From the NCBI GenBank assembly GCA_947627225.1, contig CANQVB010000002.1, positions 1 to 56,040 on the forward strand: DNA of 56,040 nucleotides, written 5' to 3'. Position 1 is the stretch's first letter; each line of letters opens with the position of its first letter. The DNA comes from an uncultured Bacilli bacterium (GTDB taxonomy: Bacteria; Bacillota_I; Bacilli_A; RF39; UBA660). A model generated the notes under the pieces. It saw only the letters and a program-made list of their open reading frames with translations, made no database searches and was not told the origin of the DNA. Positions 9,589 through 52,525 of the stretch are shown here, one piece after another. The position numbers and the translations under genes are program-made.

Positions 9589-10365
9589 ATGAATAAAATA
9601 AGGGTCTTAATGATTGATGATAACATTGAACTCATCAACATGGTTAAGGAGTATTTTAGTAGTCACGCAAATATCGAAATAGCACTCACAGCCAACAATG
9701 GCGTAGAGGGAATGGAGAAAATTGTAAAAGAAGAAGGAAACTATGATGTCATCTTATTGGATTTAATCATGCCAAAGAAAGATGGTGTTCGTGTCCTTGA
9801 AGAAATGAAAGAAAAAGGATTAGAAAGAAAGGTCATTGTTTTAACTTCGTATAATGCACAGGAAATGATTCAAAAAGTATCTGGTCTTGGAATTAATTAT
9901 TTTATTTTGAAACCGTTTGAACTGACTGATTTAGAAAAAAGAATTGTAGAGTGCATGAAAAATGGAACAGCAGAAGGTGGAACCTTTGATTTGTATCATA
10001 ACAACTTACAAATTTCGATTACCAAGATTCTACATGAACTAGGTGTTCCTTCTCATATTAAAGGGTATCAATATATCCGAGAGGGAATTAGTATTCTTTA
10101 TGAAAACCCAGGTGTTGTAGGAGGAATTACCAAAGAACTTTATCCAGATATTGCCAAAAAGTTTGATACTACAGTATCTCGTGTAGAACGAGCCATTCGT
10201 CATGCGATTGAAGTCTCTTGGAATAGAGGAAACTGGAAATTGATGGAAGAAATTTTTGGACATAGTGTGGATATTGATAAAGCAAAACCCACCAATTCTG
10301 AGTTTATTGTCACTGTCGCCGACAAGCTTAGGTTGGAATATCATAAATTACCTATAGAAGAATAA
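9589..10365 (+). CDS. spo0A: Sporulation master response regulator Spo0A
   Basis: Receiver domain ([18 protein letters not shown]) plus the Spo0A C-terminal DNA-binding signature [43 protein letters not shown]. Confidence 0.93.
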
Positions 10366-42118: not shown

Positions 42119-44470
42119 ATGAAAGTAGAATTACTGAAATGGATAAGAAAAAATTTAGAGGAAGAAAAAATTAGCAAAATTGATTTTCAAACACTTGTTG
42201 AATATGATGAAAAAGTGTTTGCCTTAATTTTATCTTCTGAGAGGGAAAAGAAACTACCTTTACTGAAATTCTTCGCTTCAAAAGAAGAGGAAAATCCAGT
42301 TTATAAATTGTATCAAGAAAATCCTCTAAAGATAATGAAATTAGGAGAACTCATTCAATATGCAAAAGGAAAAGGCCAAGCAGAATCTGCCTCACAATTA
42401 GCACGGAATAAAGCCATCCTAACAAAAGAAAATGCTCATGAATTTGTTGAACTTATCTCAAATGCAGAAGAAGAGTACCAGGCATTTTATGGTGCAGACG
42501 TTGCCCAATATGAAGCAATTTTAGCACGAGAAGATGGAATCAAGTTTGTAGAAGCAGTTGCGAGGGCAAAGGGAATCAACCAAGCACAAGATGGAGCAAA
42601 AATTTCCAAGAATAAAGCCATTTTAAAAAATGCAGCGGCTCTTAAATGCGTTACATTAGTAACAAGTGCAGAGGAATGGTATCAAGCAGAGTATGGAACC
42701 AAAGTTGCACAATATTATGGTATGCTAGAAAGAAAAGATGGAATCAAATTTGTGGAAACAATTGTAAATGCAAAAGGAAATTATCAAGCAAGATATGGAG
42801 TAGAGGTTGTTAGTGATTTAATTTTAAAAAGCGAAAACACTCTTAGCTATGTTACATTGATAACAAATGCAGAGGAAGACTATCAAGCAGACTATGGTTC
42901 TTATGTTGCTCGTGATGAAGATGTTTTAGCAAGAGAAGGTGGAATCAAGTTTGTAGAAGCTGTTGTAAAAGCAAAAGGGAAAACGCAAGCACAATATGGA
43001 GCAAAAATTGCTCAAACAAAAGCCGTTTTAGCATGGGAGGATGGAGACCAATTTGTAGAAACGATTGCAAATGCAGAGAAAGATTATCAAGCGATATATG
43101 GAGCTGATGTTGCCCAGAACGAAGCCGTTTTAAAAAATGAAAATGCTCTTAAATATCTCAGATTGGTAACAAGTGCAGAAGAGGATTACCAAGCACAATA
43201 TGGAGCAGACGTTGCTCAAAATAGAGAAATTCTAGAAAGAAAAGATGGGGTTCAGTTTGTAGAAGCTGTTGTAAAAGCAAAAGGGAAAACGCAAGCACAA
43301 TATGGAGCAAAAATTGCTCAAACAAAAGCCGTTTTAGCATGGGAGGATGGAGACCAATTTGTAGAAACGATTGCAAATGCAGAGAAAGATTATCAAGCGA
43401 TATATGGAGCTGATGTTGCCCAGAACGAAGCCGTTTTAAAAAATGAAAATGCTCTTAAATATCTCAGATTGGTAACAAGTGCAGAAGAAGATTACCAAGC
43501 ACAATATGGTGCAGTCGTTGCTCAAAATAGAGAAATTCTAGAAAGAAAAGATGGGGTTCAGTTTGTAGAAGCAGTGGTGAACGCAAAAGAAGAATTACAA
43601 GCGAGATACGGTGCAGAGGTTGCTCGTGATGAAGATGTTCTAGCAAGAGAAGATGGGGTCCAGTTTGTAGAAGTAGTGGTAAATGCCGAAGACGAATGCC
43701 AAGCAAGATATGGAGCAACAGTTGCTCATAAAATGGCTAAATTAAAAATAGAAAATGGCCTTGCTATCACAAAGTTAATTACAACAAGCGAAGAAGCAGA
43801 ATATGGAGCAGTCGTTGCTTGCAATGAAGCTGTGTTAGCAAAAGAAGATGCTTTTGATTATATAAAAAGTATTACTCAGGCAAAGACATGGTACCAAGCA
43901 CAATTTGGAGTATCCATTGCTCAAAATAAAGAAATTTTAGCAAGAGAAGATGGAATAAAGTATGTAGAGGCCGTTGTAAACGCTAAAGTATATTATCAAG
44001 CGATGTATGGAACAGCTGTTGCTTGTAATGCAAGTGTTTTAAAAAAAGAAAATGCGCTTAGCTATGTTACTTTGATAACAAATGCAAAGGAAGAATATCA
44101 AGCAGAATATGGAGCAGAAGTGGCTTGCAATGAAGCGGTTTTAGCACAAGAAGATGCCTTTGACTATGTTCAAAGTATCACAAACGCAAAAACGGAAGAA
44201 GCGGCAAAGATTGCAACTACACTCCTAGAACAAGCCGTTTTACTAGACTTTCCAATCTCTAAGACTTTTATTCAAAAAGTCGCAGATGGAACCTATACAG
44301 AAAAAGTAAAGCAATATTTAGATGAGAAAAAAGAAGAAGAAATAAAAAATGCCACTTTTAGTGATGATTGGAATATTCAAAACAAAAAACAATTAGATAT
44401 ACTGATTGCTCAGATGGAACAAGAAAACACAATTTCAAAAACATATCAGAAAAAAGCACCTTCAAAATAA
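42119..44470 (+). CDS. 34-residue-repeat protein, paralogue 4 (18 repeats, 783 aa)
   Basis: Same RBS context (GGAGGAACGGTTATG) and same N-domain (MKVELLKWIRKNLEEEKISKIDF) and C-domain (AAKIATTLLEQAV...FIQKVADGTYTEK) as the 10.4-14.3 kb array. Confidence 0.85.
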   Translation: MKVELLKWIRKNLEEEKISKIDFQTLVEYDEKVFALILSSEREKKLPLLKFFASKEEENPVYKLYQENPLKIMKLGELIQYAKGKGQAESASQLARNKAILTKENAHEFVELISNAEEEYQAFYGADVAQYEAILAREDGIKFVEAVARAKGINQAQDGAKISKNKAILKNAAALKCVTLVTSAEEWYQAEYGTKVAQYYGMLERKDGIKFVETIVNAKGNYQARYGVEVVSDLILKSENTLSYVTLITNAEEDYQADYGSYVARDEDVLAREGGIKFVEAVVKAKGKTQAQYGAKIAQTKAVLAWEDGDQFVETIANAEKDYQAIYGADVAQNEAVLKNENALKYLRLVTSAEEDYQAQYGADVAQNREILERKDGVQFVEAVVKAKGKTQAQYGAKIAQTKAVLAWEDGDQFVETIANAEKDYQAIYGADVAQNEAVLKNENALKYLRLVTSAEEDYQAQYGAVVAQNREILERKDGVQFVEAVVNAKEELQARYGAEVARDEDVLAREDGVQFVEVVVNAEDECQARYGATVAHKMAKLKIENGLAITKLITTSEEAEYGAVVACNEAVLAKEDAFDYIKSITQAKTWYQAQFGVSIAQNKEILAREDGIKYVEAVVNAKVYYQAMYGTAVACNASVLKKENALSYVTLITNAKEEYQAEYGAEVACNEAVLAQEDAFDYVQSITNAKTEEAAKIATTLLEQAVLLDFPISKTFIQKVADGTYTEKVKQYLDEKKEEEIKNATFSDDWNIQNKKQLDILIAQMEQENTISKTYQKKAPSK
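42374..44197 (+). repeat. Coding tandem repeat, 18 units of about 102 bp
   Basis: Units of 34 aa; three units are 32-33 aa. Confidence 0.85.
42951..43572 (+). repeat. Near-identical 306-bp tandem duplication (2 x three 34-aa units)
   Basis: 42961..43266 versus 43267..43572 differ at 3 positions by eye (GAGGAT/GAAGAT; GGAGCAGAC/GGTGCAGTC). Confidence 0.85.
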
Positions 44471-44475
44471 AAGGC

Positions 44476-44504
44476 TTGAAAAAGAAGGAAAAAGAACGTA
44501 TACT
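44476..44504 (+). promoter_or_regulatory. SigmaA-type promoter candidate for the leuS leader
   Basis: TTGAAA-17 nt-TATACT. Confidence 0.55.
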
Positions 44505-44510
44505 AAAATT

Positions 44511-44720
44511 ACATTTGATAAATGTGTGGAAATAGTAGTAACTCTCAATGCTTTGAAAGAGACTCTATGGTTGGTGGAAATAGAGAAAGAACAGGAGTGA
44601 ACTTGATTTCTAAGATACATTTCGGAATAAATCCGTTATCATGAAAAAGATGCATAGACACTATGAAATAAGATGGTACCGCCCAAAGAGTATGGGTTCT
44701 TATGGAAAGGTGTCTTTTTT
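44511..44720 (+). promoter_or_regulatory. T-box riboswitch leader, Leu (CUU) specifier
   Basis: Stem I carries an AGUA element, an AGAGA bulge (44558..44562), a distal stem CTCTAT/ATAGAG with GGUGGAA loop, and GAA-CTT-G in the specifier position (44602..44604). F-box CCGTTA at 44633..44638. T-box core AGATGGTACCGC at 44671..44682. T-run at 44714..44720. Confidence 0.75.
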
Positions 44721-44735
44721 ACTAGGAGGTGTGTG

Positions 44736-45089
44736 ATGAAAGAGCTTATTTTATTTGGAATGACCTTTGTATTTGTCTTTTTGATTTATGAGCTTTTTGT
44801 GGTAAGAAAAGAAAAAAAAGGAAAGTCCAAAAAGAAACCTGTTGAAGTTCGTTATTTAGAAACAAGGTACAAAATCAATTTAAAAGGAAAAGAGTACAAA
44901 CGATTACTGAATCTTGTAAGTGTTGTGAGTGCGTTCGACATTGCCCTTGTTGTAACCATTATCATGGTTGCCAAAAGTTTTATCTTAGAGCTTGTTTTAG
45001 GTGCCTTCTTAACGCTTCCTATTATTCTTGTAAGCTACCATTTAGTTGGAAAAATTTATCAAAAGAAAGGAAAGAAGAAACATGTATGA
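44736..45089 (+). CDS. Small Lys-rich membrane protein (117 aa) between the T-box and leuS
   Basis: AGGAGGTG RBS. Three hydrophobic segments. Its stop overlaps the leuS start (ATGTATGA). Confidence 0.55.
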
Positions 45090-47901
45090 TTTTAGTAAAA
45101 TAGAAAAGAAATGGCAAACTTATTGGAAGGAGCATCAGACATTTAAGACAGATGTGTGGGATTTTAGTAAGCCAAAATTCTATGTGCTTGATATGTTTCC
45201 ATATCCAAGTGGAGTTGGCCTTCATGCAGGGCATGTAGAAGGTTATACTGCGACGGATATTGTCTCTCGCATGAAAAGAATGCAAGGCTATAATGTCCTT
45301 CATCCAATGGGATATGATTCGTTTGGACTTCCTGCAGAACAATATGCTGTCCAGACTGGAAACCATCCCAGTCAATTTACGGAGAAAAACATTGCGTATT
45401 TTAGTGAACAGTTAAATACGCTTGGCTTTGATTATGATTGGAGCAAGATGGTGGCAACCAGTGATCCTAAATTTTATAAATGGACCCAGTGGATTTTTAA
45501 AAACCTTTATCAAGATGGTTATGCGAAGTATGTAGATATGCCAGTCAATTGGTGTGAAGCACTGGGTACAGTTCTTTCCAATGATGAAGTTGTCGATGGA
45601 AAATCAGAACGTGGAGGATACCCTGTTGTTCGCAAGAACATGAAACAACTTTGTATTGACCAACCTGCCTTTGCCGAAAAACTTCTAGAAGGCCTTGAAG
45701 AAATTGATTGGCCAGAATCTACCAAAGAAATGCAAAGAAACTGGATTGGAAAGTCAATTGGTGCCCATGTCACGTTTAAAATTGCAGGACATGAAAAAGA
45801 ATTTACAGTATTTACAACACGTTGTGATACTTTGTTTGGCGCGACTTATTGTGTTCTAGCGCCGGAGCATGCTTATGTGGATGAAATTACCACTGAAGAA
45901 CATAAAAAAGAAGTGGAAGCATATAAACAAGCTTGTGCTTCTAAAAGTGATTTGGAACGGACGGAGTTAAACAAAGACAAGACAGGTGTCTTTACAGGGG
46001 CTTATGCCATCAACCCTGTCAATGAAGAAAAAATTCCAATTTATATCAGTGACTATGTACTGGCAAGTTATGGAACAGGTGCGATTATGGCAGTACCTGC
46101 ACATGATGACAGAGATTATGAATTTGCAAAGAAGTTTGGTATTCCCATTATCCAGGTTCTAGAAGAAGTGACCGGAACACCCCATGAAAATGAGACAAAA
46201 AAGGAATCCATTGTGGCAGTTGTTTACAATCCAAAAACGAAAAAGTATTTAACGATCAATTGGCATGAAAAAGGGGGCCGTCTTTTTATTGGGGGTACAA
46301 GAAAAGAAAACGAAGATGCCTTATCTTGTGCAATTCGTGAAATTCAAGAAGAAACAGGATACAAAAACGTAGAATGCATTGCAGAACTTCCTAAGATAGA
46401 GCACCATTATTATGCTTATAATAAGGACAAGTATTTTGGTATTGAAAGTACAGGTTTCTTCTTCCATTTAAAAGATGAGGAGCAAGTTGAAAAACAATTA
46501 GATGAAGATGAAGTATTCGATGTTGAATGGGTTGATGAAAAGAAAGTAGAAGAAATTCAGGATGAACTACATCAAAAAACGTACCAATATGCCAAAAATC
46601 CAGGTGCCATGACGAAAGATGGAACGCATATCCATTCTAAGTTCTTAAACGGAATGAACAAGCAAGAAGCGATTGATGCAATGGTAAAATGGTTAGAAGA
46701 ACATCACTGTGGAAGTAGAAAAGTAAACTATAAATTCCGGGAATGGATTTTTGCACGCCAAAGATACTGGGGAGAACCTGTTCCGATTGTACACTTAGAA
46801 GATGGTACAGATTACGTTTTAGAAGATGCGGAACTTCCCCTTGTTTTACCAGAACTTGCTGACTATAAAGGACATCATGGAAAAGCACCTTTGGAAAATG
46901 CAACCGAATGGAAGCAATATACGACCAAAGATGGAAGAAGTGGAACAAGGGAGACTTCCACAATGCCAGGAAGTGCTGGTTCTAGTTGGTATTACTTCCG
47001 CTATATCGACCCAGAAAATGAGAAGATATTTTGTGATCCAAAACTAGCAGAGCACTGGCTTCCTGTCGATCTTTATATGGGAGGTCCAGAACATGCGGTA
47101 GGACACTTAATGTATTCAAGGATTTGGAATCGCTATCTTTATGACAAGGGGTTATCTCCTGTCAAAGAGCCTTTCAAAAAGTTAGTCCATCAGGGAATGA
47201 TTTTAGGTGAGAATGGAATCAAAATGGGAAAGCGATATCCAGAGTATGCCATTGATCCAAAAGACATTGCCAAAGAATATGGTGCCGATACACTTCGCTT
47301 ATATGAAATGTTTATGGGGCCTATCGAAGCTTCAAAACCATGGAGTGCAAGTGGCGTAGAAGGGGCTAAGAAATTTATAGACCGTGTCTTCCGATTCTTT
47401 ACAAATCTTGAAAATTTAACCGAAGAAAATGATGGTACTCTTACAAAGATTTATCATCAAACTGTCAAAAAAGTGACCGAAGACTTTGAAAGTCTTGGTT
47501 TCAATACTGCCATCAGTCAAATGATGATTTTTGTAAACGAGTGTTACAAAGTAGGAAAGTGTCCGAAAGAATATGCAGAAAAGTTTATTCAAATGATGAG
47601 TTGTATCACCCCACATATAGGAGAAGAGATTTGGGAACTTTACGGACACAAAGAAACCATTGCCTATGAACCATGGCCTGTTTATGATGAAAAATATTTA
47701 GTAGAAGATGAAAAAGAAATTGCTGTTCAAGTCAATGGAAAAGTAAGAGCAACGATTCTAGTTAAAGAAGAGGATACAGACCAAGAAATTGAAGCAAAGG
47801 CAATGGAAGAAGCCAATGTGAAAAGACACATTGAAGGCAAACAAATTGTAAAAGTAATTGTAATCAAAGGACGAATTTGTAACATTGTCGTTAAGGAGTA
47901 G
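45082..47901 (+). CDS. leuS: Leucyl-tRNA synthetase with inserted Nudix domain (939 aa)
   Basis: [15 protein letters not shown] start, HAGHVEGY (HIGH), CP1 editing motifs, [17 protein letters not shown] in place of KMSKS. Start at ATG 45082 rather than TTG 45046. Confidence 0.92.
46162..46602 (+). other. Nudix hydrolase domain inserted in-frame in LeuRS
   Basis: Nudix box [24 protein letters not shown] (46294..46362 from the second G) fits Gx5Ex7REUxEExGU exactly. Flanked by [18 protein letters not shown] and [11 protein letters not shown]. Confidence 0.8.
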
Positions 47902-47913
47902 GAGGTTCAAAGG

Positions 47914-48810
47914 ATGGGGTTTCAGTACAAATTTGATATCGAAGGAAAAGTCTATGATTTAATTCCAAATTACCCACAAGAAAATACAATTGATTTGAAT
48001 GTACTAAATCAACTTTGTTATCTATTTCGTTATGAGCAAGAAACATACAAAAAGCCAAAACAAAGAGAAGAGGATACCTTTCAAAACTATCAAGGATATA
48101 TAGAACATCTTTTAAAAACAAGGCAAGATGAGATTATTCAAGAAATTCATTGTGGTTGCTATGAAAAAGAGGTCTTACAGCAAATGAAGGGTAGAGAAGA
48201 CATCTTATTTCAATACCTATTTCAAAAAGAAAAATTATCTTTGTCCGCCATGAATGCGCAAAAAATATTTGATTTTTATGCATGCACGGAAAGTGATTGT
48301 AGTAAATCCTTACTATCGCTAGAAGGTGCTATGTTACTAGGTGAAACATGGATGCCCAAAAATCTTGCTATCACACTTTTAAAAAAACAGATGACAAAAG
48401 AAAAAGAACTGAAAACACGCTTTTTAAATGGTCGCATGCTCCTTCTTCTTCGAGGGGAATATAAAAGCAAGATAAAACAAGAAGTCTTAAGAACATATTC
48501 TAATGCGGAGTTTATGGAAGAAAAAAAGAATTTTGAACGGTTTTATAGAGGACTTTCTCTTGCAGTAGCCATTTTACAAGAAACGAAAGTAAATACGGAA
48601 ACTGCATTTAGCTGTCCAAAAGAAGAACCCTTTTGTGAAGAATATGTAGAAGCTTCCAAAATTTTACCCTTGAATACAGGAAACCAGCTTTTACTCAAAA
48701 TGACACGAACGCTTTCTCTTTTAGAAGAAGAGGAAAAGAAAAGAAAACGCCCACTGGTTGTGCCTGTTCATAAAAGACACTATAGCCCATCTTTTCAGGG
48801 AAAAATGTGA
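47914..48810 (+). CDS. Hypothetical protein (298 aa)
   Basis: GGAGG RBS, 12 nt after leuS. No family recognised. Confidence 0.5.
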   Translation: MGFQYKFDIEGKVYDLIPNYPQENTIDLNVLNQLCYLFRYEQETYKKPKQREEDTFQNYQGYIEHLLKTRQDEIIQEIHCGCYEKEVLQQMKGREDILFQYLFQKEKLSLSAMNAQKIFDFYACTESDCSKSLLSLEGAMLLGETWMPKNLAITLLKKQMTKEKELKTRFLNGRMLLLLRGEYKSKIKQEVLRTYSNAEFMEEKKNFERFYRGLSLAVAILQETKVNTETAFSCPKEEPFCEEYVEASKILPLNTGNQLLLKMTRTLSLLEEEEKKRKRPLVVPVHKRHYSPSFQGKM

Positions 48811-48825
48811 AAAAGGAGGATTTAG

Positions 48826-49446
48826 ATGGAAAAAGAATACAATACGAATGTAGAAATCACACGGTATGATGTAGACTGGCTACGCATTAAATCTGCTTGC
48901 ATGACAACGATTAGTAAAATTGCAGGGAGTAAAGAACCATCTATAGAATGGAAGAAAAAATTACTCATCTGTAGGCATTCGCCCATTCGAAGAGGTGAAG
49001 TGAGTTGGAAGTGGGAGGAGATTCCATATGCAATGAGTACCCATTTTGCAAGACACCATGAAGGCTGTGAAAAATTTATAGGAACAGAAAGGGAAGATCG
49101 CACCAATACCCCTCGCGAAGAAAGAAGTCAAATGAATCTAGTTCCTATGGAAATGGATGCGAATTTAAATGCCTTAATGAGCATTTCTGAAAGAAGACTT
49201 TGTATGTGTGCGGATCCAACAACACGCAAATATTGGGAAGCCGTTGTGGATGAAATTAGAAAATATAGTGAAGTGGTTGCTTGGTCTTTGGTACCACAAT
49301 GTGTTCGTTGTGGAGGGTGTGTAGAAATGTTTGGCAATTGTCAATTCTATGCCAATACGATGCAAGGAATTACTTTAGAAGAACAAATGGATGTCATGAA
49401 GCGCTATGACATTTATAACCAAAGGGTGCGAAAGTTAGTCATCTAA
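48826..49446 (+). CDS. Hypothetical protein, possibly a divergent ThyX-fold homologue
   Basis: CRHSPIRRGEVSWKWEEIPYAMSTHFARHH aligns by eye with the ThyX HETPFEH..F.F....P.FV.RQ..RHR segment, but the RHRxxSxxxxSxR motif is not intact. Cys-rich C-terminus. Confidence 0.35.
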   Translation: MEKEYNTNVEITRYDVDWLRIKSACMTTISKIAGSKEPSIEWKKKLLICRHSPIRRGEVSWKWEEIPYAMSTHFARHHEGCEKFIGTEREDRTNTPREERSQMNLVPMEMDANLNALMSISERRLCMCADPTTRKYWEAVVDEIRKYSEVVAWSLVPQCVRCGGCVEMFGNCQFYANTMQGITLEEQMDVMKRYDIYNQRVRKLVI

Positions 49447-49751: not shown

Positions 49752-51041
49752 CTAGAGTTTTTCCTTACGAATCATTTTAATTCCATAGTAGTGTGGGAAG
49801 AAGTGCTTTAGGGTTGAATATAAAAAAGTATCTAGAACGTAATCAAACTCTCCCACTAATTCTACCACTTCTCCACCGAAGTTTCGTTTGTAGGCATAGC
49901 TTCCATACATGGGACTATCTTCTCTGAAGTCTCCTGAAATTTCATAGAGATTGTATAGATTATAACCCTGCTCTTTGGCATATCGAATCATTTCATAATG
50001 AAGGGTGACAGAAGCATCTAAATTTTTCCATTCTTCAAAAACTCCACCATGAAGTGAAATGACTTCATTTCCATAGAGAATGAAGAAGTATCCCCCTAAA
50101 AGAATGGTTTCTCCATGTTCTTGTAAAACGGTTTGGTAGGCTTCCTTTTTCTCTTCTAAGACTTGAATGAGGTCTTCTTGTTGGGCCTCTTTTTTTTGAT
50201 AAGTTTCTTCGTTCATGTGAAGAACTGCATCTTTTTGAAACGCACGATTGAAGTAACTTTTTTTCTGTGCTTCAATCTCTTGTTCTAAAGAAGCAATGGC
50301 CTCTTTGGGATGAAGCTCTACGACGACCATTTTTAAAGCATCCTTTGGAAAGGCATCCAGTAAATCTTCATAGTAATGATTGGTGTATTCCAGGGTATGA
50401 TATTTGTCGCTCACTTCTTTCATAATGGCTACAAATTGTGGAAGTTCTTCTTTCTTAAGAAACCGTATTTGAATTCCTTCTCGCGCATTTCGATGAACAA
50501 TTTGCCGAGTCTTTTCGCGCATCTGTTTTTCTAAATCTTCCATACTCTGATTTTGAAGATCAATTGCATAAAGCCATCTAGGTTGTACCATGTTTCGTTT
50601 AAAATCATCCCCAACATGCATAAATCCTAATTTTTCGAGTCGTTCTACAATACGGGTGTTGTCTTTTCCACCTTCTAACAATTCACCATCTTTGTCTCGT
50701 TTATGAAAGGGAAGGTAAGGATCGATTTTTAAGTAAATGCCACGTTTTTCTTTAACAAAACGAGTCACTTCTTTGGTAAAATTTGTAAGCAATTCTTCCT
50801 TGTCATAATCCAGCAAGAAACCACGAGGGGCGTAGAAATAACGCTTTTTAAAAAATTTTGTATCTTGAGAAAAAAGCACCGTCGCTGCCAGGATGTCCTC
50901 TTTTTCTTTATATCCTAAAAAGTAAGGATGCCATCCATCTTTTTCCATAAATTTTGCCCAGTAAGAACTCTGTTGAAAATTATTATGTTGCTGTTTTTCA
51001 GCAAATTCATCAAACTCTTTCTTCTTTAATTCTACAAGCAT
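49752..51041 (-). CDS. FemAB-family peptidoglycan interpeptide-bridge aminoacyltransferase
   Basis: 429 aa. FemAB layout with two GNAT-like halves separated by a coiled-coil insert. FQQSSYWAKF...YAPRGFLLDY...YLYGGVF-type motifs. Confidence 0.8.
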   Translation of the reverse strand: MLVELKKKEFDEFAEKQQHNNFQQSSYWAKFMEKDGWHPYFLGYKEKEDILAATVLFSQDTKFFKKRYFYAPRGFLLDYDKEELLTNFTKEVTRFVKEKRGIYLKIDPYLPFHKRDKDGELLEGGKDNTRIVERLEKLGFMHVGDDFKRNMVQPRWLYAIDLQNQSMEDLEKQMREKTRQIVHRNAREGIQIRFLKKEELPQFVAIMKEVSDKYHTLEYTNHYYEDLLDAFPKDALKMVVVELHPKEAIASLEQEIEAQKKSYFNRAFQKDAVLHMNEETYQKKEAQQEDLIQVLEEKKEAYQTVLQEHGETILLGGYFFILYGNEVISLHGGVFEEWKNLDASVTLHYEMIRYAKEQGYNLYNLYEISGDFREDSPMYGSYAYKRNFGGEVVELVGEFDYVLDTFLYSTLKHFFPHYYGIKMIRKEKL

Positions 51042-51256: not shown

Positions 51257-52525
51257 ATGCTTCAGGAGGTTTCTTTCGAAGAATTTCAAAAATTTGCGGA
51301 AAAAGAGCCCCTTTATACCTTCCATCAAACGAAGGAATGGGCTGAATTAAAAGAAAAAAATGGGTGGAGTCATGTCTTTCTTCTTTACACAAAGGGGAAG
51401 AAAAAAGCAGGAGCGCTTCTTCTTTTAAAGCCACTTTTATTAGGAAAGAAAATGTGCTATAGCCCTAGAGGATTTTTACTGGATTACGAAGACAGAGATT
51501 TGGTAAAAGATTTTACAGATGCACTTAAAACGTATTTGAAAAAGAAAGGTGCTATTTTTGTAAAGATTGACCCCCCGCTTCTTTTAAATGAACGCGATAA
51601 AGAAGGGGCTTTGATAGAAAATGGAATCGACCATCATGATGTTGTTACAGATTTAAAGTCTTTGGGTTATATACACTATGGGTTTCAAAAGGACATTGAA
51701 AAAGAACTCCAACCAAGATGGGTGTTTGTGCTTCCCTTAAAGGATAAGAGCGAAGAAGAACTTTATGCACACTTTGATTCGAGGACAAAAAGGTCTCTTA
51801 AAAAGTGCGAAAAAGAAGGTCTAGTAGTCGAAGAGATGCAGGAAGATGAGATTTCTCTTTTTAAAGCCATTATGGAGCACACTTCAAGTCGTCGTGGTTT
51901 TTTAGATCGTCCGCTTTCTTATTACCAAAACTTAAAAGCCATTTTAAAAGAACATTGTATCGTTTTACTTTGTTATTTAGATTGTAAAAAAGCAAGGCAA
52001 TCTTTAAAGGAACAAAAGGAAGAACAAGAAAAAAAGAGGGAAGCTTGCGACAAGCAGAAAGAAAGCAAAAAATACGAAAAAACATGCCAAGAAATTGAAG
52101 AACGTCTTTCTGGAATTACTGCCAAAATGGAAGCACTTTCAAGCTTAGAAAAGGAAAAAGGAAGTAAAATTTTACTGGGTGGTTCTATGTTCTTACAGTA
52201 TGGAAGAGAAACAACCTATCTTTTTGGAGGGAGTTTTCAAGAATTTATGCAGTATCCAAGCCAGTATCTCATCCAGTGGGAATCGATTCAGAGGGCTTTA
52301 AAAAAAGGATGTACACTTTATAACTTCTATGGTATTGATGGAAACTTTGACACAAAGGGAAAGATGCATGGGATTTATGAGTTTAAACGAGGCTTTGATG
52401 GAGAAGTAAGAGAATATATTGGAGAGTTTGATCTTCCGATTTCTAAAGGGTTTTACCGCCTTTATAAAATCGCCTTTTCTTGTTATAAGAAGATAAAAAA
52501 TCGAGGAACAAAAAAGAAGAGTTAG
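51257..52525 (+). CDS. FemAB-family peptidoglycan interpeptide-bridge aminoacyltransferase (second paralogue)
   Basis: 422 aa. FHQTKEWAELK...YSPRGFLLDY...YLFGGSF. Divergent from the first paralogue. Confidence 0.8.
   Translation: MLQEVSFEEFQKFAEKEPLYTFHQTKEWAELKEKNGWSHVFLLYTKGKKKAGALLLLKPLLLGKKMCYSPRGFLLDYEDRDLVKDFTDALKTYLKKKGAIFVKIDPPLLLNERDKEGALIENGIDHHDVVTDLKSLGYIHYGFQKDIEKELQPRWVFVLPLKDKSEEELYAHFDSRTKRSLKKCEKEGLVVEEMQEDEISLFKAIMEHTSSRRGFLDRPLSYYQNLKAILKEHCIVLLCYLDCKKARQSLKEQKEEQEKKREACDKQKESKKYEKTCQEIEERLSGITAKMEALSSLEKEKGSKILLGGSMFLQYGRETTYLFGGSFQEFMQYPSQYLIQWESIQRALKKGCTLYNFYGIDGNFDTKGKMHGIYEFKRGFDGEVREYIGEFDLPISKGFYRLYKIAFSCYKKIKNRGTKKKS

What the first reader, a model, noticed from the sequence alone, without database searches (positions are those of the whole stretch)
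46162..46602. Complete Nudix hydrolase domain inserted in-frame into leucyl-tRNA synthetase
The insertion lies between [20 protein letters not shown] (end of the CP1 editing-domain block) and [13 protein letters not shown]. Bacillus-type LeuRS has, as I recall, only some 15-20 residues there. This ORF carries about 145 extra residues, including [24 protein letters not shown], an exact fit to the Nudix box Gx5Ex7REUxEExGU. The box is flanked by beta-strand-like segments expected of the fold ([18 protein letters not shown]; GFFFHL; FDVEWVD). The ORF stays open, and its 939 aa equals a typical ~805-aa LeuRS plus the insert. I know of no described aaRS with an internal Nudix domain. Possible substrates are Ap4A-type dinucleotides made by aaRS side reactions, aminoacyl-adenylate or other nucleotide signals, but these are speculation.
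Basis: partly seen in the sequence, partly recalled or inferred. Interest (0 to 1): 0.85.

Follow-up and report, generated by a model that had tools for sequence, protein, structure and literature searches.

The report
Nudix hydrolase domain inside leucyl-tRNA synthetase
The enzyme that loads leucine onto tRNA here carries a complete, strongly conserved extra enzyme (a Nudix nucleotide pyrophosphatase) spliced into its proofreading domain, and the searchable literature does not describe this design although hundreds of uncultured gut and CPR bacteria share it, which points to an unexplored link between tRNA charging and nucleotide or RNA-end clean-up.

Summary
ORF 45082-47901 encodes a 939-aa bacterial LeuRS. 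A 147-aa segment (aa 362-508, nt 46165-46605) replaces a 7-residue loop of the CP1 editing domain. The segment is a full Nudix domain: Pfam 50.9 bits against a cut-off of 21.1, an exact Nudix box, and an AF2 model with pLDDT 93.5.

It is not a mis-assembly. At least 494 GTDB species representatives, all uncultured gut Bacilli/"Tenericutes" MAGs, carry it inside leuS. The box is intact in 75 of 80 homologues and dN/dS is 0.04-0.15. Across deep LeuRS divergence the module is more conserved than LeuRS itself.

New findings:
- A second module type (A) occupies the same loop, so four alleles exist (none, A, B, A+B), distributed patchily among close relatives. A syntenic insert-less orthologue exists.
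- Related modules interrupt LeuRS at four or more sites, and IleRS once.
- Free-standing relatives occur mainly in CPR bacteria; 3 of 10 examined lie directly upstream of an aaRS gene (leuS, valS, thrS).

Sequence and fold neighbours are RppH, Ap4A hydrolases and Dcp2. My best guess is an active pyrophosphohydrolase coupled to the synthetase that clears ApnN-type by-products, or alternatively acts on RNA ends. The function is untested. No paper describing this was found.

The parts
45082..47901 (+). leuS: 939-aa leucyl-tRNA synthetase with an internal Nudix domain (stop codon included)
   Evidence: ORF. TIGR00396 scores 982.8 bits, with Pfam tRNA-synt_1, tRNA-synt_1_2 (editing) and Anticodon_1. 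It occupies the same locus as the insert-less orthologue in L082.
45223..45234 (+). HIGH signature (HAGH, aa 48-51) of the synthetic site
   Evidence: invariant in alignment A1.
45814..45831 (+). Thr-rich editing motif TTRCDT (aa 245-250) of CP1
   Evidence: T245, T246, R247, D249 and T250 are invariant in A1, so the editing site appears intact.
46099..46116 (+). Editing-site motif AHDDRD (aa 340-345), containing the conserved Asp, 16 residues before the insertion point
46165..46605 (+). The insert: a 147-aa type-B Nudix module (aa 362-508) replacing the ancestral loop GGDISKE
   Evidence: Delimited by alignment with 798-800-aa relatives. No counterpart in any solved LeuRS; it lies between Tth residues 364 and 379. 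AF2 model of aa 358-512: pLDDT 93.5, pTM 0.88.
46165..46194 (+). Conserved lead-in [10 protein letters not shown], which is also the N-terminus of free-standing relatives ('FG.PH..E')
   Evidence: T5, G6 and E12 are invariant in A2. The same lead-in appears in the free-standing proteins P0136, P0153, P0154 and P0162.
46204..46557 (+). Pfam NUDIX (PF00293) match, aa 375-492
46294..46362 (+). Nudix box [23 protein letters not shown] (aa 405-427); the catalytic residues are R419, E420, E423 and E424
   Evidence: The strict box is present in 75 of 80 insert-bearing homologues.
46402..46428 (+). Family motif HHYYAYNKD (aa 441-449), with Tyr at +16, +17 and +19 after the box, in the putative substrate-recognition 'X-loop'
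   Evidence: H82, H83, Y84, Y85, A86, N88 and K89 are invariant in A2. A conserved Tyr in this loop marks ApnA hydrolases (PMC5389931). This is a lead, not a test.
46606..46653 (+). Return to LeuRS: [16 protein letters not shown] (aa 509-524), homologous to [16 protein letters not shown] of insert-less relatives
47221..47235 (+). KMSKS-equivalent loop, which reads KMGKR here (aa 714-718)
   Evidence: invariant in A1.
44673..45089 (+). Conserved small upstream ORF (138 aa) that overlaps the leuS start and is probably co-transcribed
   Evidence: 76% identical over 117 aa to the gene at the same position in L082. No Pfam hit.

Best explanation
SHOWN. The window encodes the housekeeping LeuRS of an uncultured gut Bacillota bacterium. 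An autonomous, fully folded Nudix domain of 147 aa is inserted in frame into a variable surface loop of the CP1 editing domain, 16 residues after the editing-site motif. The synthetic motifs (HIGH, KMSKS-like) and the editing motifs are intact. The module keeps every Nudix-box catalytic residue and is under strong purifying selection. It belongs to a distinct Nudix subfamily that has been joined to aminoacyl-tRNA synthetases repeatedly: at four or more sites in LeuRS, once in IleRS, and as a separate gene directly upstream of leuS, valS or thrS.

INFERRED. The module is an active pyrophosphohydrolase that works alongside the synthetase. Its nearest characterised relatives by sequence and fold are RppH/NudH, Nudix Ap4A hydrolases and Dcp2. 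The substrate I think most likely is therefore a 5'-polyphosphate-linked adenylyl compound made by the synthetase's own side reaction, in which the enzyme-bound aminoacyl-adenylate is attacked by ATP or another NTP to give Ap4A, Ap3A or Ap4N. The tethered Nudix domain would cleave these asymmetrically (for example Ap4A to AMP + ATP) close to where they arise. That would limit alarmone or Np4-cap accumulation in lineages that may lack ApaH or YqeK. Tethering matters more than a fixed geometry, because the module sits at different places in different LeuRSs.
For: Architecture and reality:
- ORF, profile matches and exact box.
- Insert delimited against insert-less orthologues, one of them syntenic.
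- At least 494 GTDB species representatives carry it, and in all 80 loci inspected it lies inside a LeuRS ORF.

Functional constraint:
- Strict box in 75 of 80 homologues; the five exceptions are single substitutions.
- dN/dS of the insert is 0.04-0.15, against about 0.01-0.14 for the flanking LeuRS.
- Between the two deep LeuRS body clades the module is 63% identical, against 55% (N-terminal body) and 47% (C-terminal body).
- Editing and synthetic motifs are invariant.

Fold: AF2 pLDDT 93.5, pTM 0.88, complete alpha/beta/alpha Nudix fold.

Coupling to aaRS:
- About 100 of the best 150 representatives (50% clusters) matching the module profile are LeuRS or LeuRS fragments.
- Insertion sites lie at LeuRS positions ~362/368, ~207-222, ~237-247 and ~432-481.
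- There is an IleRS with the module.
- Free-standing genes sit 5 bp upstream of a ValRS-like gene, ~580 bp upstream of leuS and 87 bp upstream of a ThrRS-type gene followed by miaA. One more abuts Sua5/TsaC. That is 3 of 10 examined directly upstream of an aaRS gene.

Substrate class:
- Best NCBIfam and PDB sequence matches are RppH, NudB, YtkD and Dcp2.
- Foldseek neighbours are E. coli RppH (including the Ap4A-bound entry 7SP3), Aquifex Ap4A hydrolase (TM 0.69/0.79) and human NUDT2.
- Tyr residues are invariant at +16/+17 after the box, in the loop where ApnA hydrolases carry their signature Tyr (PMC5389931).
- aaRSs are the recognised source of Ap3-5N, and Nudix enzymes (RppH/NudH/IalA, NUDT2, MutT1) are recognised Ap4A hydrolases (PMC7705103).
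Against: - No activity was or could be measured.
- The module does not reach the curated cut-off of any NCBIfam Nudix equivalog; RppH scores 24.9-28.3 bits against 118.
- The best structural neighbour is an uncharacterised E. faecalis Nudix (2AZW), and TM-scores to RppH and Ap4A hydrolases (about 0.6-0.8) are ordinary for any pair of minimal Nudix folds.
- From my own knowledge (Goerlich et al. 1982), LeuRS is not among the strongest Ap4A producers, and Ap4A synthesis would not explain a preference for LeuRS.
- In CPR relatives other 'house-cleaning' domains (Ham1/ITPase, His_Phos_1) are inserted into the same synthetases, and the module also occurs inside an M17 aminopeptidase. That fits a generic fusion rationale.
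- Close relatives manage without the module (P0020, P0024, the P0078 clade), so it is dispensable for LeuRS function.
- Whether these genomes lack YqeK, ApaH or RppH was not tested.
- The orientation of the module relative to the synthetic and editing sites is unknown, because the full-length model failed (pLDDT 50).
Confidence: 0.35

Rival explanations
1. RNA-end-directed Nudix. Like RppH or Dcp2, the module acts on a polyphosphate or cap-like group at an RNA end, and LeuRS (or the neighbouring aaRS) delivers the RNA. Candidate substrates are 5'-triphosphate, Np4- or NAD-capped tRNA or tRNA precursors, or a pyrophosphorylated tRNA 3' end.
For: - The best PDB sequence matches of the type-B profile are the Nudix domains of the decapping enzymes Dcp2 (E = 2e-7), ASFV g5R and AvrM14-A, and also B. 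subtilis RppH.
- NCBIfam hits are RppH and YtkD, 'RNA deprotection pyrophosphohydrolase'.
- Foldseek ranks RNA-bound RppH entries among the top hits.
- The insertion lies in CP1, the domain that binds the tRNA acceptor end (plus established LeuRS structural knowledge).
- Every partner is a tRNA-binding enzyme, and the neighbours include the tRNA-modification genes tsaD, Sua5/tsaC and miaA.
- His_Phos_1 is co-inserted in IleRS and lies adjacent to a free-standing gene. It could remove a residual phosphate.
Against: - Mature tRNA carries a 5'-monophosphate, so no substrate is obvious.
- No RNA-binding extension such as Dcp2 Box B or the RppH-DapF interface was identified.
- All the similarities are below family thresholds.
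- The module sits at several different positions in LeuRS, which argues against a precise geometry relative to bound tRNA.
Confidence: 0.22
2. Piggy-back house-cleaning. The module is a general nucleotide-pool sanitising or salvage pyrophosphatase with no mechanistic tie to leucylation. It is fused into a permissive loop of a constitutively expressed essential protein, which guarantees expression and saves regulatory sequence in small genomes.
For: - In CPR representatives the same synthetases also host Ham1/ITPase (P0245, Candidatus Paceibacterota) and a histidine phosphatase (P0170).
- The module also sits inside an M17 aminopeptidase together with GNAT domains.
- There are multiple insertion sites and tandem copies.
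- The host loop is naturally variable, and solved LeuRSs have only 14 unaligned residues there.
- Seven of ten free-standing genes are not directly beside an aaRS gene.
- Submitters name the free-standing proteins MutT-like.
Against: - About two thirds of the closest 150 cluster representatives are LeuRS. That is far more partner-specific than a random permissive-host model predicts.
- 3 of 10 free-standing genes directly precede an aaRS gene.
- The module is more conserved than the LeuRS body over deep divergence.
- The window lineage is not extremely reduced: it has Spo0A, FemAB and sortase.
Confidence: 0.22
3. A conditionally useful accessory or 'immunity' allele. The module detoxifies a nucleotide-type inhibitor of LeuRS, or repairs a toxin-inflicted modification. 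It is therefore kept as a presence/absence (none, A, B, A+B) polymorphism that is shuffled among related gut bacteria by homologous recombination.
For: - The architecture is patchy on a bootstrapped LeuRS-body tree. Insert-less P0020 groups with B-bearing P0003/P0004 at 90%. The insert-less forms never group together (0 of 300 replicates). A clade mixing A, B and none has 99% support.
- P0020 is P0002-like right up to both junctions, yet carries the same 11-aa loop as the more distant insert-less P0078 clade.
- Two non-orthologous module types (28% identity) occupy the same loop.
- Module clusters do not follow body clades (ARI 0.02-0.08).
Against: - Synonymous divergence inside the module is no lower than in the flanks, even for the most discordant pairs. 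There is therefore no evidence of recent transfer, and long-term constraint explains the 'similar insert, divergent body' pairs.
- No toxin or inhibitor is known.
- PADLOC and other defence libraries were not searched.
- The locus has ordinary housekeeping neighbours.
Confidence: 0.1
4. A non-catalytic module: a ligand-sensing or purely structural, tRNA-contacting domain that has kept a Nudix-like sequence, as in NrtR-type regulators.
For: Five of 80 homologues carry substitutions in catalytic box positions (R to H, EE to AE or EA) and are still maintained. Some divergent LeuRS representatives have no strict box.
Against: 94% keep the strict box, including all the metal-binding glutamates, with strong purifying selection. 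Free-standing homologues of about 160 aa, which cannot be LeuRS structural elements, share the same motifs.
Confidence: 0.08
5. An artefact: a chimeric assembly, a frameshifted pseudogene, or an intein-like selfish insert.
For: None beyond the unusual length.
Against: - Hundreds of independent assemblies from rabbit, ruminant, human, chicken and mouse samples carry it.
- The frame is open, omega is about 0.05-0.15 and GC content is normal.
- The insert begins with Glu and ends Pro-Gly followed by Ala. It has no Cys/Ser/Thr at its first residue and no His-Asn followed by Cys/Ser/Thr at its end, so it is not an intein.
- The Pfam match is NUDIX only.
Confidence: 0.01

Closest known systems
Canonical bacterial LeuRS (T. 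thermophilus 1H3N/2BYT; E. coli 4AQ7)
   Same: The body is full length. TIGR00396 scores 982.8 bits, and phmmer gives E = 1.6e-203 to 1H3N. HIGH, a KMSKS-like loop, the CP1 editing motifs, and the anticodon-binding and C-terminal domains are all present.
   Different: 147 extra residues lie between Tth residues 364 and 379, with no counterpart in any solved LeuRS. KMSKS reads KMGKR. There is no leucine-specific domain.
RppH/NudH and 'asymmetrical' Nudix Ap4A hydrolases (E. coli RppH 4S2X/7SP3, Aquifex 3I7U, human NUDT2 4IJX)
   Same: Minimal single-domain Nudix fold, a complete box, and a Tyr about 17 residues after the box. Foldseek E is 2e-7 to 5e-6 and TM 0.63-0.79. RppH is among the best NCBIfam hits.
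   Different: Identity is 16-20%. Scores are far below the RppH equivalog cut-off (about 25-28 bits against 118). The family-specific motifs (lead-in 'TG.PH.NE', 'HHYYAxNK', 'DELH') are not those of RppH. The module is embedded inside another enzyme.
Dcp2 / g5R / AvrM14 decapping Nudix domains
   Same: They are the best sequence-level PDB matches of the type-B profile (E = 2e-7 to 1e-3, over about 115 residues).
   Different: Only the catalytic Nudix core aligns. There is no regulatory N-terminal domain, and Box B was not assessed. These are eukaryotic or viral mRNA-cap enzymes.
Free-standing ~155-175-aa Nudix proteins of Patescibacteria/CPR (e.g. P0292 Ca. Staskawiczbacteria, P0357 Ca. Paceibacterota, P0380 Ca. 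Nomurabacteria)
   Same: The same subfamily, with the same N-terminal lead-in, box and [FY][YF]A..K..[NW]R motif. Some lie directly upstream of aaRS genes.
   Different: They are separate genes, 19-30% identical to the window module for most members and 38% for P0136. They are uncharacterised, auto-named MutT/NUDIX, and three were named 'leuS' by submitters.
IleRS with an N-acetyltransferase domain (NCBIfam NF040702 'ileS_w_GNAT')
   Same: A precedent, catalogued by NCBI, for a class Ia synthetase carrying an additional enzymatic domain (listed).
   Different: A different synthetase and a different added enzyme. No NCBIfam model exists for the LeuRS-Nudix form.
MutT/nudix family protein of Enterococcus faecalis (PDB 2AZW)
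   Same: The best structural neighbour (E = 1.3e-8, TM 0.74/0.78).
   Different: 18% identity; a structural-genomics entry with no assigned substrate.

Membership tests
Nudix hydrolase superfamily (PF00293) | Profile match above Pfam's gathering score | tested here: met
   50.9 bits inside the whole protein and 54.5 bits alone, against 21.1.
Nudix hydrolase superfamily (PF00293) | Nudix box Gx5Ex7REUxEExGU with the metal-binding Glu residues | tested here: met
   [23 protein letters not shown], aa 405-427. Conserved in 75 of 80 homologues.
Nudix hydrolase superfamily (PF00293) | Alpha/beta/alpha sandwich Nudix fold | tested here: met
   AF2 pLDDT 93.5 and pTM 0.88. 415 PDB matches at E <= 1e-3, and all 50 listed are Nudix proteins.
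Nudix hydrolase superfamily (PF00293) | Divalent-cation-dependent pyrophosphohydrolase activity | not testable with these tools
   Needs an enzyme assay.
Bacterial leucyl-tRNA synthetase (TIGR00396 leuS_bact) | Equivalog profile above the curated cut-off | tested here: met
   982.8 bits against 548.4, in two stretches split by the insert.
Bacterial leucyl-tRNA synthetase (TIGR00396 leuS_bact) | Class I signatures HIGH and KMSKS | tested here: met
   HAGH at aa 48-51. The KMSKS position reads KMGKR (aa 714-718), a variant that is invariant among relatives, including the insert-less ones.
Bacterial leucyl-tRNA synthetase (TIGR00396 leuS_bact) | CP1 editing domain with the Thr-rich motif and the conserved Asp | tested here: met
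   PF13603 scores 210 bits. TTRCDT and AHDDRD are present and invariant.
Bacterial leucyl-tRNA synthetase (TIGR00396 leuS_bact) | It is the genome's (sole) functional LeuRS | tested here: inconclusive
   It occupies the same syntenic locus as the insert-less orthologue and omega is about 0.04. The number of leuS copies per genome could not be counted.
RppH / Nudix ApnA-hydrolase subfamily | Match to the curated equivalog model (NF001936/NF001938) | tested here: not met
   24.9-28.3 bits against a cut-off of 118.
RppH / Nudix ApnA-hydrolase subfamily | Conserved Tyr in the X-loop downstream of the box (Tyr87 of NUDT2; PMC5389931) | tested here: inconclusive
   Tyr at +16, +17 and +19 is invariant. 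Structural equivalence to the signature Tyr was not verified.
RppH / Nudix ApnA-hydrolase subfamily | Hydrolysis of Ap4A/Ap5A or pppRNA | not testable with these tools
   Needs an enzyme assay.
Dcp2-type decapping enzymes | Nudix core plus the Box A/Box B and N-terminal regulatory domain | tested here: not met
   Only the ~115-residue Nudix core aligns. The module is 147 aa in total, with no extra domain.
Inteins (rival class for in-frame inserts in essential genes) | Cys/Ser/Thr at the first residue, a C-terminal His-Asn and a Cys/Ser/Thr at +1; Hint fold | tested here: not met
   The insert starts with Glu and ends Pro-Gly followed by Ala. The fold is Nudix.

The most novel reading that the evidence does not exclude
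A dedicated, previously unrecognised Nudix subfamily is a recurrent partner of editing-type aminoacyl-tRNA synthetases: fused into LeuRS at four or more sites and into IleRS, and apparently operonic with leuS, valS and thrS. In gut Bacilli it exists as interchangeable alleles at one CP1 loop (none, A, B, A+B). This would mean that the synthetase-tRNA complex generates or encounters a specific nucleotide-linked species that must be destroyed on the spot. Candidates are an Np4N alarmone or cap precursor, a capped or pyrophosphorylated tRNA end, or a nucleotide-mimic inhibitor. That would be a new quality-control or repair activity attached to tRNA charging, conditionally advantageous and exchanged by recombination.
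Probability: 0.2. Interest if true: 0.88.

Novelty: new variant of a known kind. Interest (0 to 1): 0.7.

Why it matters
Aminoacyl-tRNA synthetases are among the best-studied enzymes. Catalytic domains added in bacteria are rare, and I found no description of a hydrolase domain inserted into the CP1 proofreading domain. Here the added enzyme is conserved more strongly than the synthetase that hosts it. It recurs independently at several sites and in several synthetases, and it has free-standing relatives placed next to synthetase genes. Together these are the classic 'Rosetta-stone' signature of a functional partnership. If the partner reaction is clearance of Ap4A/Np4N or processing of a tRNA or RNA end, it would tie dinucleoside-polyphosphate or RNA-cap metabolism directly to tRNA charging. 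It would also give an experimentally tractable handle: one protein, simple E-to-Q mutants, and natural insert-less orthologues as controls. It would assign a first functional context to a Nudix family typical of CPR/Patescibacteria and of abundant uncultured gut Bacilli. It also matters for annotation, because these proteins are currently named plain LeuRS, and small CPR Nudix genes are sometimes mis-named 'leuS'.

Tried and rejected
1. The full-length AF2 model from the 14-sequence alignment A1 failed (mean pLDDT 50.4, pTM 0.29).
2. I looked for a T-box or any other Rfam family and found nothing at gathering threshold in the whole window, and no tRNA genes.
3. Recent horizontal transfer of the module between diverged leuS genes looked likely from protein-level discordance. 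The codon-level test did not support it: dS and identical-codon fractions inside the module equal those of the flanks, even for the most extreme pair, P0006/L027. I therefore attribute those pairs to long-term constraint. I keep recombination only as the explanation for the presence/absence pattern among close relatives.
4. P0136 was suspected to be a piece of a split or recoded LeuRS. Reading the locus showed a separate gene between a TsaD-like gene and a ValRS-like gene.
5. An intein or other selfish insert is rejected.
6. A compositional anomaly of the insert is rejected.
7. The taxonomy look-up of 'Candidatus Scybalousia' was unhelpful, because it is a homonym placed in Bacteroidales. Lineage statements rest on record titles only.
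8. The DNA alignment of the junctions with L082 showed no flanking repeats.
9. A first Biopython bootstrap timed out and was redone in numpy.
10. Four literature searches for a synthetase-Nudix fusion and one on LeuRS CP1 insertions found no description. Paywalled literature and InterPro architecture tables could not be searched.


Full report
**1. The observation**

The window has one long ORF at 45046-47901 on the + strand. The ATG at 45082 follows a purine-rich stretch and gives a 939-aa protein.

The protein matches the bacterial LeuRS equivalog TIGR00396 with 982.8 bits against a cut-off of 548.4, in two stretches. Pfam finds tRNA-synt_1, the LeuRS editing domain (aa 219-375), Anticodon_1 and NUDIX PF00293 (aa 375-492). 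NUDIX scores 50.9 bits against a gathering score of 21.1, and 54.5 bits when the insert is scanned alone.

Alignment with close relatives of 798-800 aa that lack the segment delimits it exactly. '[27 protein letters not shown]' in those relatives corresponds to 'QVLE-[147 aa][16 protein letters not shown]' here.

The box [23 protein letters not shown] (aa 405-427) fits Gx5Ex7REUxEExGU. It is the only such box in any frame of the 56-kb window. The insert's GC content (0.351) equals the window mean.

**2. It is real and it is functional protein**

A search with the whole protein returned dozens of 90%-identity clusters of 937-949 aa. They have the same Pfam architecture and come from NCBI, ENA, JGI and Logan assemblies. 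The 80 loci fetched are all uncultured gut MAGs labelled Bacilli, Tenericutes, Mycoplasmatota or Erysipelotrichaceae, from rabbit, ruminants, humans, chicken and mouse. In all 80 the match lies inside a LeuRS reading frame.

Among 80 insert-bearing homologues, 75 keep the strict Nudix box. The five exceptions each carry one or two point substitutions, at the box's first Gly, at Arg or at the paired Glu residues. Pairwise Nei-Gojobori estimates on the fetched DNA give dN/dS of 0.04-0.15 for the insert. The flanking LeuRS gives about 0.01-0.14, apart from one near-identical pair with a noisy 0.28. For the window against its nearest relative L001 the insert value is 0.048.

The LeuRS catalytic motifs (HAGH, and KMGKR in place of KMSKS) and editing motifs (TTRCDT, AHDDRD) are present and invariant. 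An AlphaFold2 model of aa 358-512, built on a 122-sequence alignment, is confident (pLDDT 93.5, pTM 0.88) and shows a complete Nudix fold. Mis-assembly, a pseudogene and an intein are therefore excluded. On the intein, the insert starts with Glu and ends Pro-Gly followed by Ala.

**3. Where it sits**

Against solved LeuRS structures, the window protein aligns up to T. thermophilus residue 364 and resumes at 379. Window residues 363-511 have no counterpart. From established LeuRS structural knowledge, the T. thermophilus editing domain spans about residues 224-417, so this loop lies inside CP1. It begins 16 residues after the conserved editing-site Asp motif.

The window is ordinary core chromosome. 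It holds GAPDH, PGK, TPI, Spo0A, a sortase, the ribosomal-protein operon, ProRS, an M20 peptidase, a GNAT, two FemAB paralogues and NrdD. The insert-less protein P0020, whose body is 87% identical, sits in the same neighbourhood in a rabbit-gut MAG. There ProRS is 82% identical, the small upstream ORF 76%, the downstream ORFs 59% and 85%, and FemAB 66%. The insert-bearing and insert-less genes are therefore orthologues at one locus.

**4. Two module types and four alleles**

Inspecting the homologues revealed a second Nudix module, type A. It reads AKNFIGTGDS...FVMGGIEG..REIxEETGYT...FYAAHKDVNRHITC and occupies the same loop in 948-949-aa LeuRSs. It is 28% identical to the window's type B (hhalign probability 99.2). 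Proteins of 1,102-1,105 aa carry A followed by B. Among the top 120 hits the counts are 81 B (80 by motif, plus P0019 identified by eye), 29 without an insert, 7 A and 3 A+B.

On a neighbour-joining tree of the LeuRS body alone the states are interleaved, and the pattern is robust to bootstrapping:
- Insert-less P0020 groups with B-bearing P0003/P0004 at 90%.
- The insert-less forms never group together (0 of 300 replicates).
- A clade that mixes A, B and insert-less forms has 99% support.

P0020 is P0002-like right up to both junctions, yet has the same 11-residue loop ([11 protein letters not shown]) as the more distant insert-less P0078 clade. A deletion of the module cannot recreate that loop. 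The pattern is best explained by replacement of a short central tract between alleles. That is inference. It was not dated or shown directly.

**5. Constraint or transfer**

At the protein level the module looks discordant with the body:
- Module divergence plateaus at about 0.35 while body divergence runs to 0.6.
- Some pairs have bodies about 45% identical and modules 84% identical.
- Between the two deep body clades the module averages 63% identity, against 55% and 47% for the N- and C-terminal bodies.
- Module clusters do not track body clades (ARI 0.02-0.08).

I then tested the obvious reading, recent transfer of the module, at the codon level, and it failed. In discordant pairs dS in the module (0.6-1.7) is no lower than in the flanks. 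Identical-codon fractions at conserved residues are only marginally above baseline. The most extreme pair, P0006/L027, behaves the same way. The defensible conclusion is that over long periods the module is held under tighter protein-level constraint than much of LeuRS. Ancient transfers cannot be excluded, because dS is near saturation.

**6. A wider association with synthetases**

A profile of the type-B module was searched exhaustively against 1.84 billion cluster representatives. It gave 664 hits at E <= 1e-3. About 100 of the best 150 are LeuRS or LeuRS fragments.

Mapping the modules onto a profile of insert-less LeuRS shows at least four insertion points:

| Site (position in the 799-aa insert-less LeuRS) | Notes |
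|---|---|
| ~362/368 | the window's site, by far the most common, also used in a Candidatus Paceibacterota protein |
| ~207-222 | often tandem |
| ~237-247 | |
| ~432-481 | |

Some proteins carry two or three Nudix modules. Pfam scans of other representatives gave the following:
- P0170 is an IleRS with NUDIX and a histidine phosphatase inserted.
- P0245 is a LeuRS with NUDIX and Ham1/ITPase, from Candidatus Paceibacterota.
- P0177 is an M17 aminopeptidase with two GNAT domains and NUDIX.

Free-standing proteins of about 155-175 aa share the same lead-in and motifs. Where a source names the organism, they are almost all from Patescibacteria/CPR. Three were annotated 'leuS' by their submitters.

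I examined ten free-standing genes in their contigs:

| Context |
|---|
| 5 bp upstream of a ValRS-like gene and just downstream of a TsaD-like gene |
| ~580 bp upstream of an ordinary 807-aa leuS |
| 87 bp upstream of a ThrRS-type gene followed by miaA |
| next to Sua5/TsaC |
| next to a His_Phos_1 gene |
| five with no obvious link |

Three of ten directly preceding an aaRS gene is far above the roughly 1-3% expected by chance. All the partner synthetases seen (Leu, Ile, Val, Thr) are editing enzymes. That is a post-hoc observation.

**7. What the module resembles**

The NCBIfam hits are RppH, NudB and YtkD (a B. subtilis RNA pyrophosphohydrolase). All are far below the curated cut-offs.

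The type-B profile's best matches among PDB sequences are the Nudix domains of Dcp2 (E = 2e-7), g5R, NudB, AvrM14-A and B. subtilis RppH.

Foldseek with the confident model ranks an uncharacterised E. faecalis Nudix (2AZW) first, with TM 0.74/0.78. E. coli RppH follows with many entries, including RNA-bound and Ap4A-bound forms. After those come a putative CTP pyrophosphohydrolase, NDP-sugar and ADP-ribose hydrolases, the Aquifex Ap4A hydrolase (TM 0.69/0.79), human NUDT2 and NudB.

The invariant motif HHYYAxNK places Tyr at +16/+17 after the box. Srouji et al. 2017 (PMC5389931) describe a conserved Tyr downstream of the box, in the X-loop, as the mark of ApnA hydrolases. I could not verify the structural equivalence, so this remains a lead.

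Ferguson et al. 2020 (PMC7705103) list aaRSs as producers of Ap3-5N. They list ApaH, YqeK (Gram-positives) and Nudix enzymes (RppH/NudH/IalA, NUDT2, MutT1) as the degraders.

**8. Mechanism**

Shown: a catalytically complete, autonomously folding Nudix domain sits inside an otherwise intact LeuRS. It is conserved, and the subfamily is repeatedly joined to synthetases.

Inferred: the module is an active pyrophosphohydrolase whose substrate is connected to the synthetase reaction. My estimates:

| Explanation | Probability |
|---|---|
| Clearance of Ap4A/ApnN-type by-products at source | ~0.35 |
| RNA- or tRNA-end-directed activity of the RppH/Dcp2 kind | ~0.22 |
| Generic house-cleaning enzyme fused for expression, suggested by the Ham1 and His_Phos co-insertions and the multiple sites | ~0.22 |
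| Conditionally useful 'immunity' allele, suggested by the allele pattern | ~0.10 |
| Non-catalytic module | ~0.08 |

None of these can be settled in silico.

**9. Novelty**

Four full-text searches looked for a synthetase-Nudix fusion (LeuRS + Nudix; Nudix + aaRS + editing domain; Nudix + tRNA synthetase + Patescibacteria; NUDIX domain + tRNA ligase). A fifth looked for LeuRS CP1 insertions in CPR. None found a description. A 2017 clan-wide Nudix review contains neither 'tRNA' nor 'synthetase'.

NCBIfam has a dedicated model for IleRS with GNAT but none for this architecture. The databases call these proteins simply 'leucine--tRNA ligase'.

The architecture is thus abundant in sequence data and, as far as I can search, undescribed. 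I classify it as a new variant of known kinds, namely LeuRS and Nudix hydrolases. Limits: I could not search paywalled literature or InterPro architecture tables.

**10. Verdict**

The finding is larger than reported. It comprises two module types, four alleles, at least four insertion sites, several synthetases and a free-standing CPR family with synthetase-linked gene order.

Interest is 0.70. The most novel reading not excluded by the evidence is a dedicated aaRS-coupled Nudix quality-control or repair activity with recombining alleles. I give it a probability of about 0.2, and it would merit about 0.88 if true.

Noticed in passing
window 42119-44470 (+): A 783-aa ORF built almost entirely of ~34-aa repeats ('..AEEDYQAQYGADVAQNEAVL..', with YQA recurring every 33-34 or 68 residues). 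It has no Pfam match. Together with its upstream neighbours at about 38-41.7 kb, it is absent from the otherwise syntenic insert-less locus L082.
   Followed up: partly
window 1-56040, especially 44471-45081: No Rfam family at gathering threshold and no tRNA gene anywhere in 56 kb. In particular there is no T-box leader upstream of leuS or proS, which is unusual for a Firmicute aaRS gene.
   Followed up: partly
window 44673-45089 (+): A 138-aa hydrophobic ORF overlaps the leuS start. It is 76% identical over 117 aa to the gene at the same place in L082, so it is a real gene of unknown function, probably co-transcribed with leuS.
   Followed up: partly
window 47221-47235 (+): The LeuRS KMSKS signature reads KMGKR and is invariant across this clade, insert-less members included. 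The enzyme also lacks a leucine-specific domain: T. thermophilus residues 580-650 have no counterpart.
   Followed up: partly
window 47914-48810 and 48826-49446 (+): Two conserved hypothetical ORFs lie immediately downstream of leuS (59% and 85% identical in L082) with no Pfam match. The second is Cys-rich.
   Followed up: no
window 49752-51041 (-) and 51257-52525 (+): Two divergent FemAB-family genes (aminoacyl-tRNA-dependent peptidoglycan bridge synthesis) lie next to the leuS block. FemAB is also present in the syntenic locus L082.
   Followed up: no
P0170 (1,345 aa; Logan contig of 12.6 kb): An IleRS carries both a NUDIX domain (aa 270-396) and a histidine-phosphatase domain (His_Phos_1, aa 665-809) inserted in its body. 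In locus L089 a His_Phos_1 gene sits directly upstream of a free-standing Nudix gene of the same family.
   Followed up: partly
P0245 cluster (1,330 aa; Candidatus Paceibacterota): A LeuRS with a NUDIX module at the window's site and a complete Ham1/ITPase domain (aa 984-1167) inserted before the anticodon-binding domain. NCBI names it 'RdgB/HAM1 family non-canonical purine NTP pyrophosphatase'.
   Followed up: partly
P0177 (1,318 aa): An M17 (leucyl) aminopeptidase with two GNAT domains and a NUDIX module of the same subfamily inserted.
   Followed up: no
P0124, P0126, P0133, P0139, P0144 (LeuRS representatives): LeuRSs with two or three Nudix modules, often in tandem at the CP1 entry (LeuRS position ~209), sometimes with another at ~362.
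   Followed up: partly
P0277, P0278, P0353 (157-162 aa; Parcubacteria, Kaiserbacteria): Small free-standing Nudix proteins deposited under the gene name 'leuS'. This is probably annotation transfer from Nudix-bearing LeuRS entries, and so a propagating mis-annotation.
   Followed up: no
L093 6001-9075 (also L094, L095): A free-standing type-A-like Nudix gene (P0395, seen on 48 contigs) lies 87 bp upstream of a ThrRS-type gene, which is followed by the tRNA isopentenyltransferase gene miaA. It looks like an operon.
   Followed up: partly
window 9589-10365 (+); L082 7357-7530: Spo0A in the window, and a Cse60 spore-protein gene in the related locus, suggest that these uncultured 'Bacilli/Tenericutes'-labelled gut bacteria form spores and have cell walls (the window also has a sortase and FemAB).
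   Followed up: no
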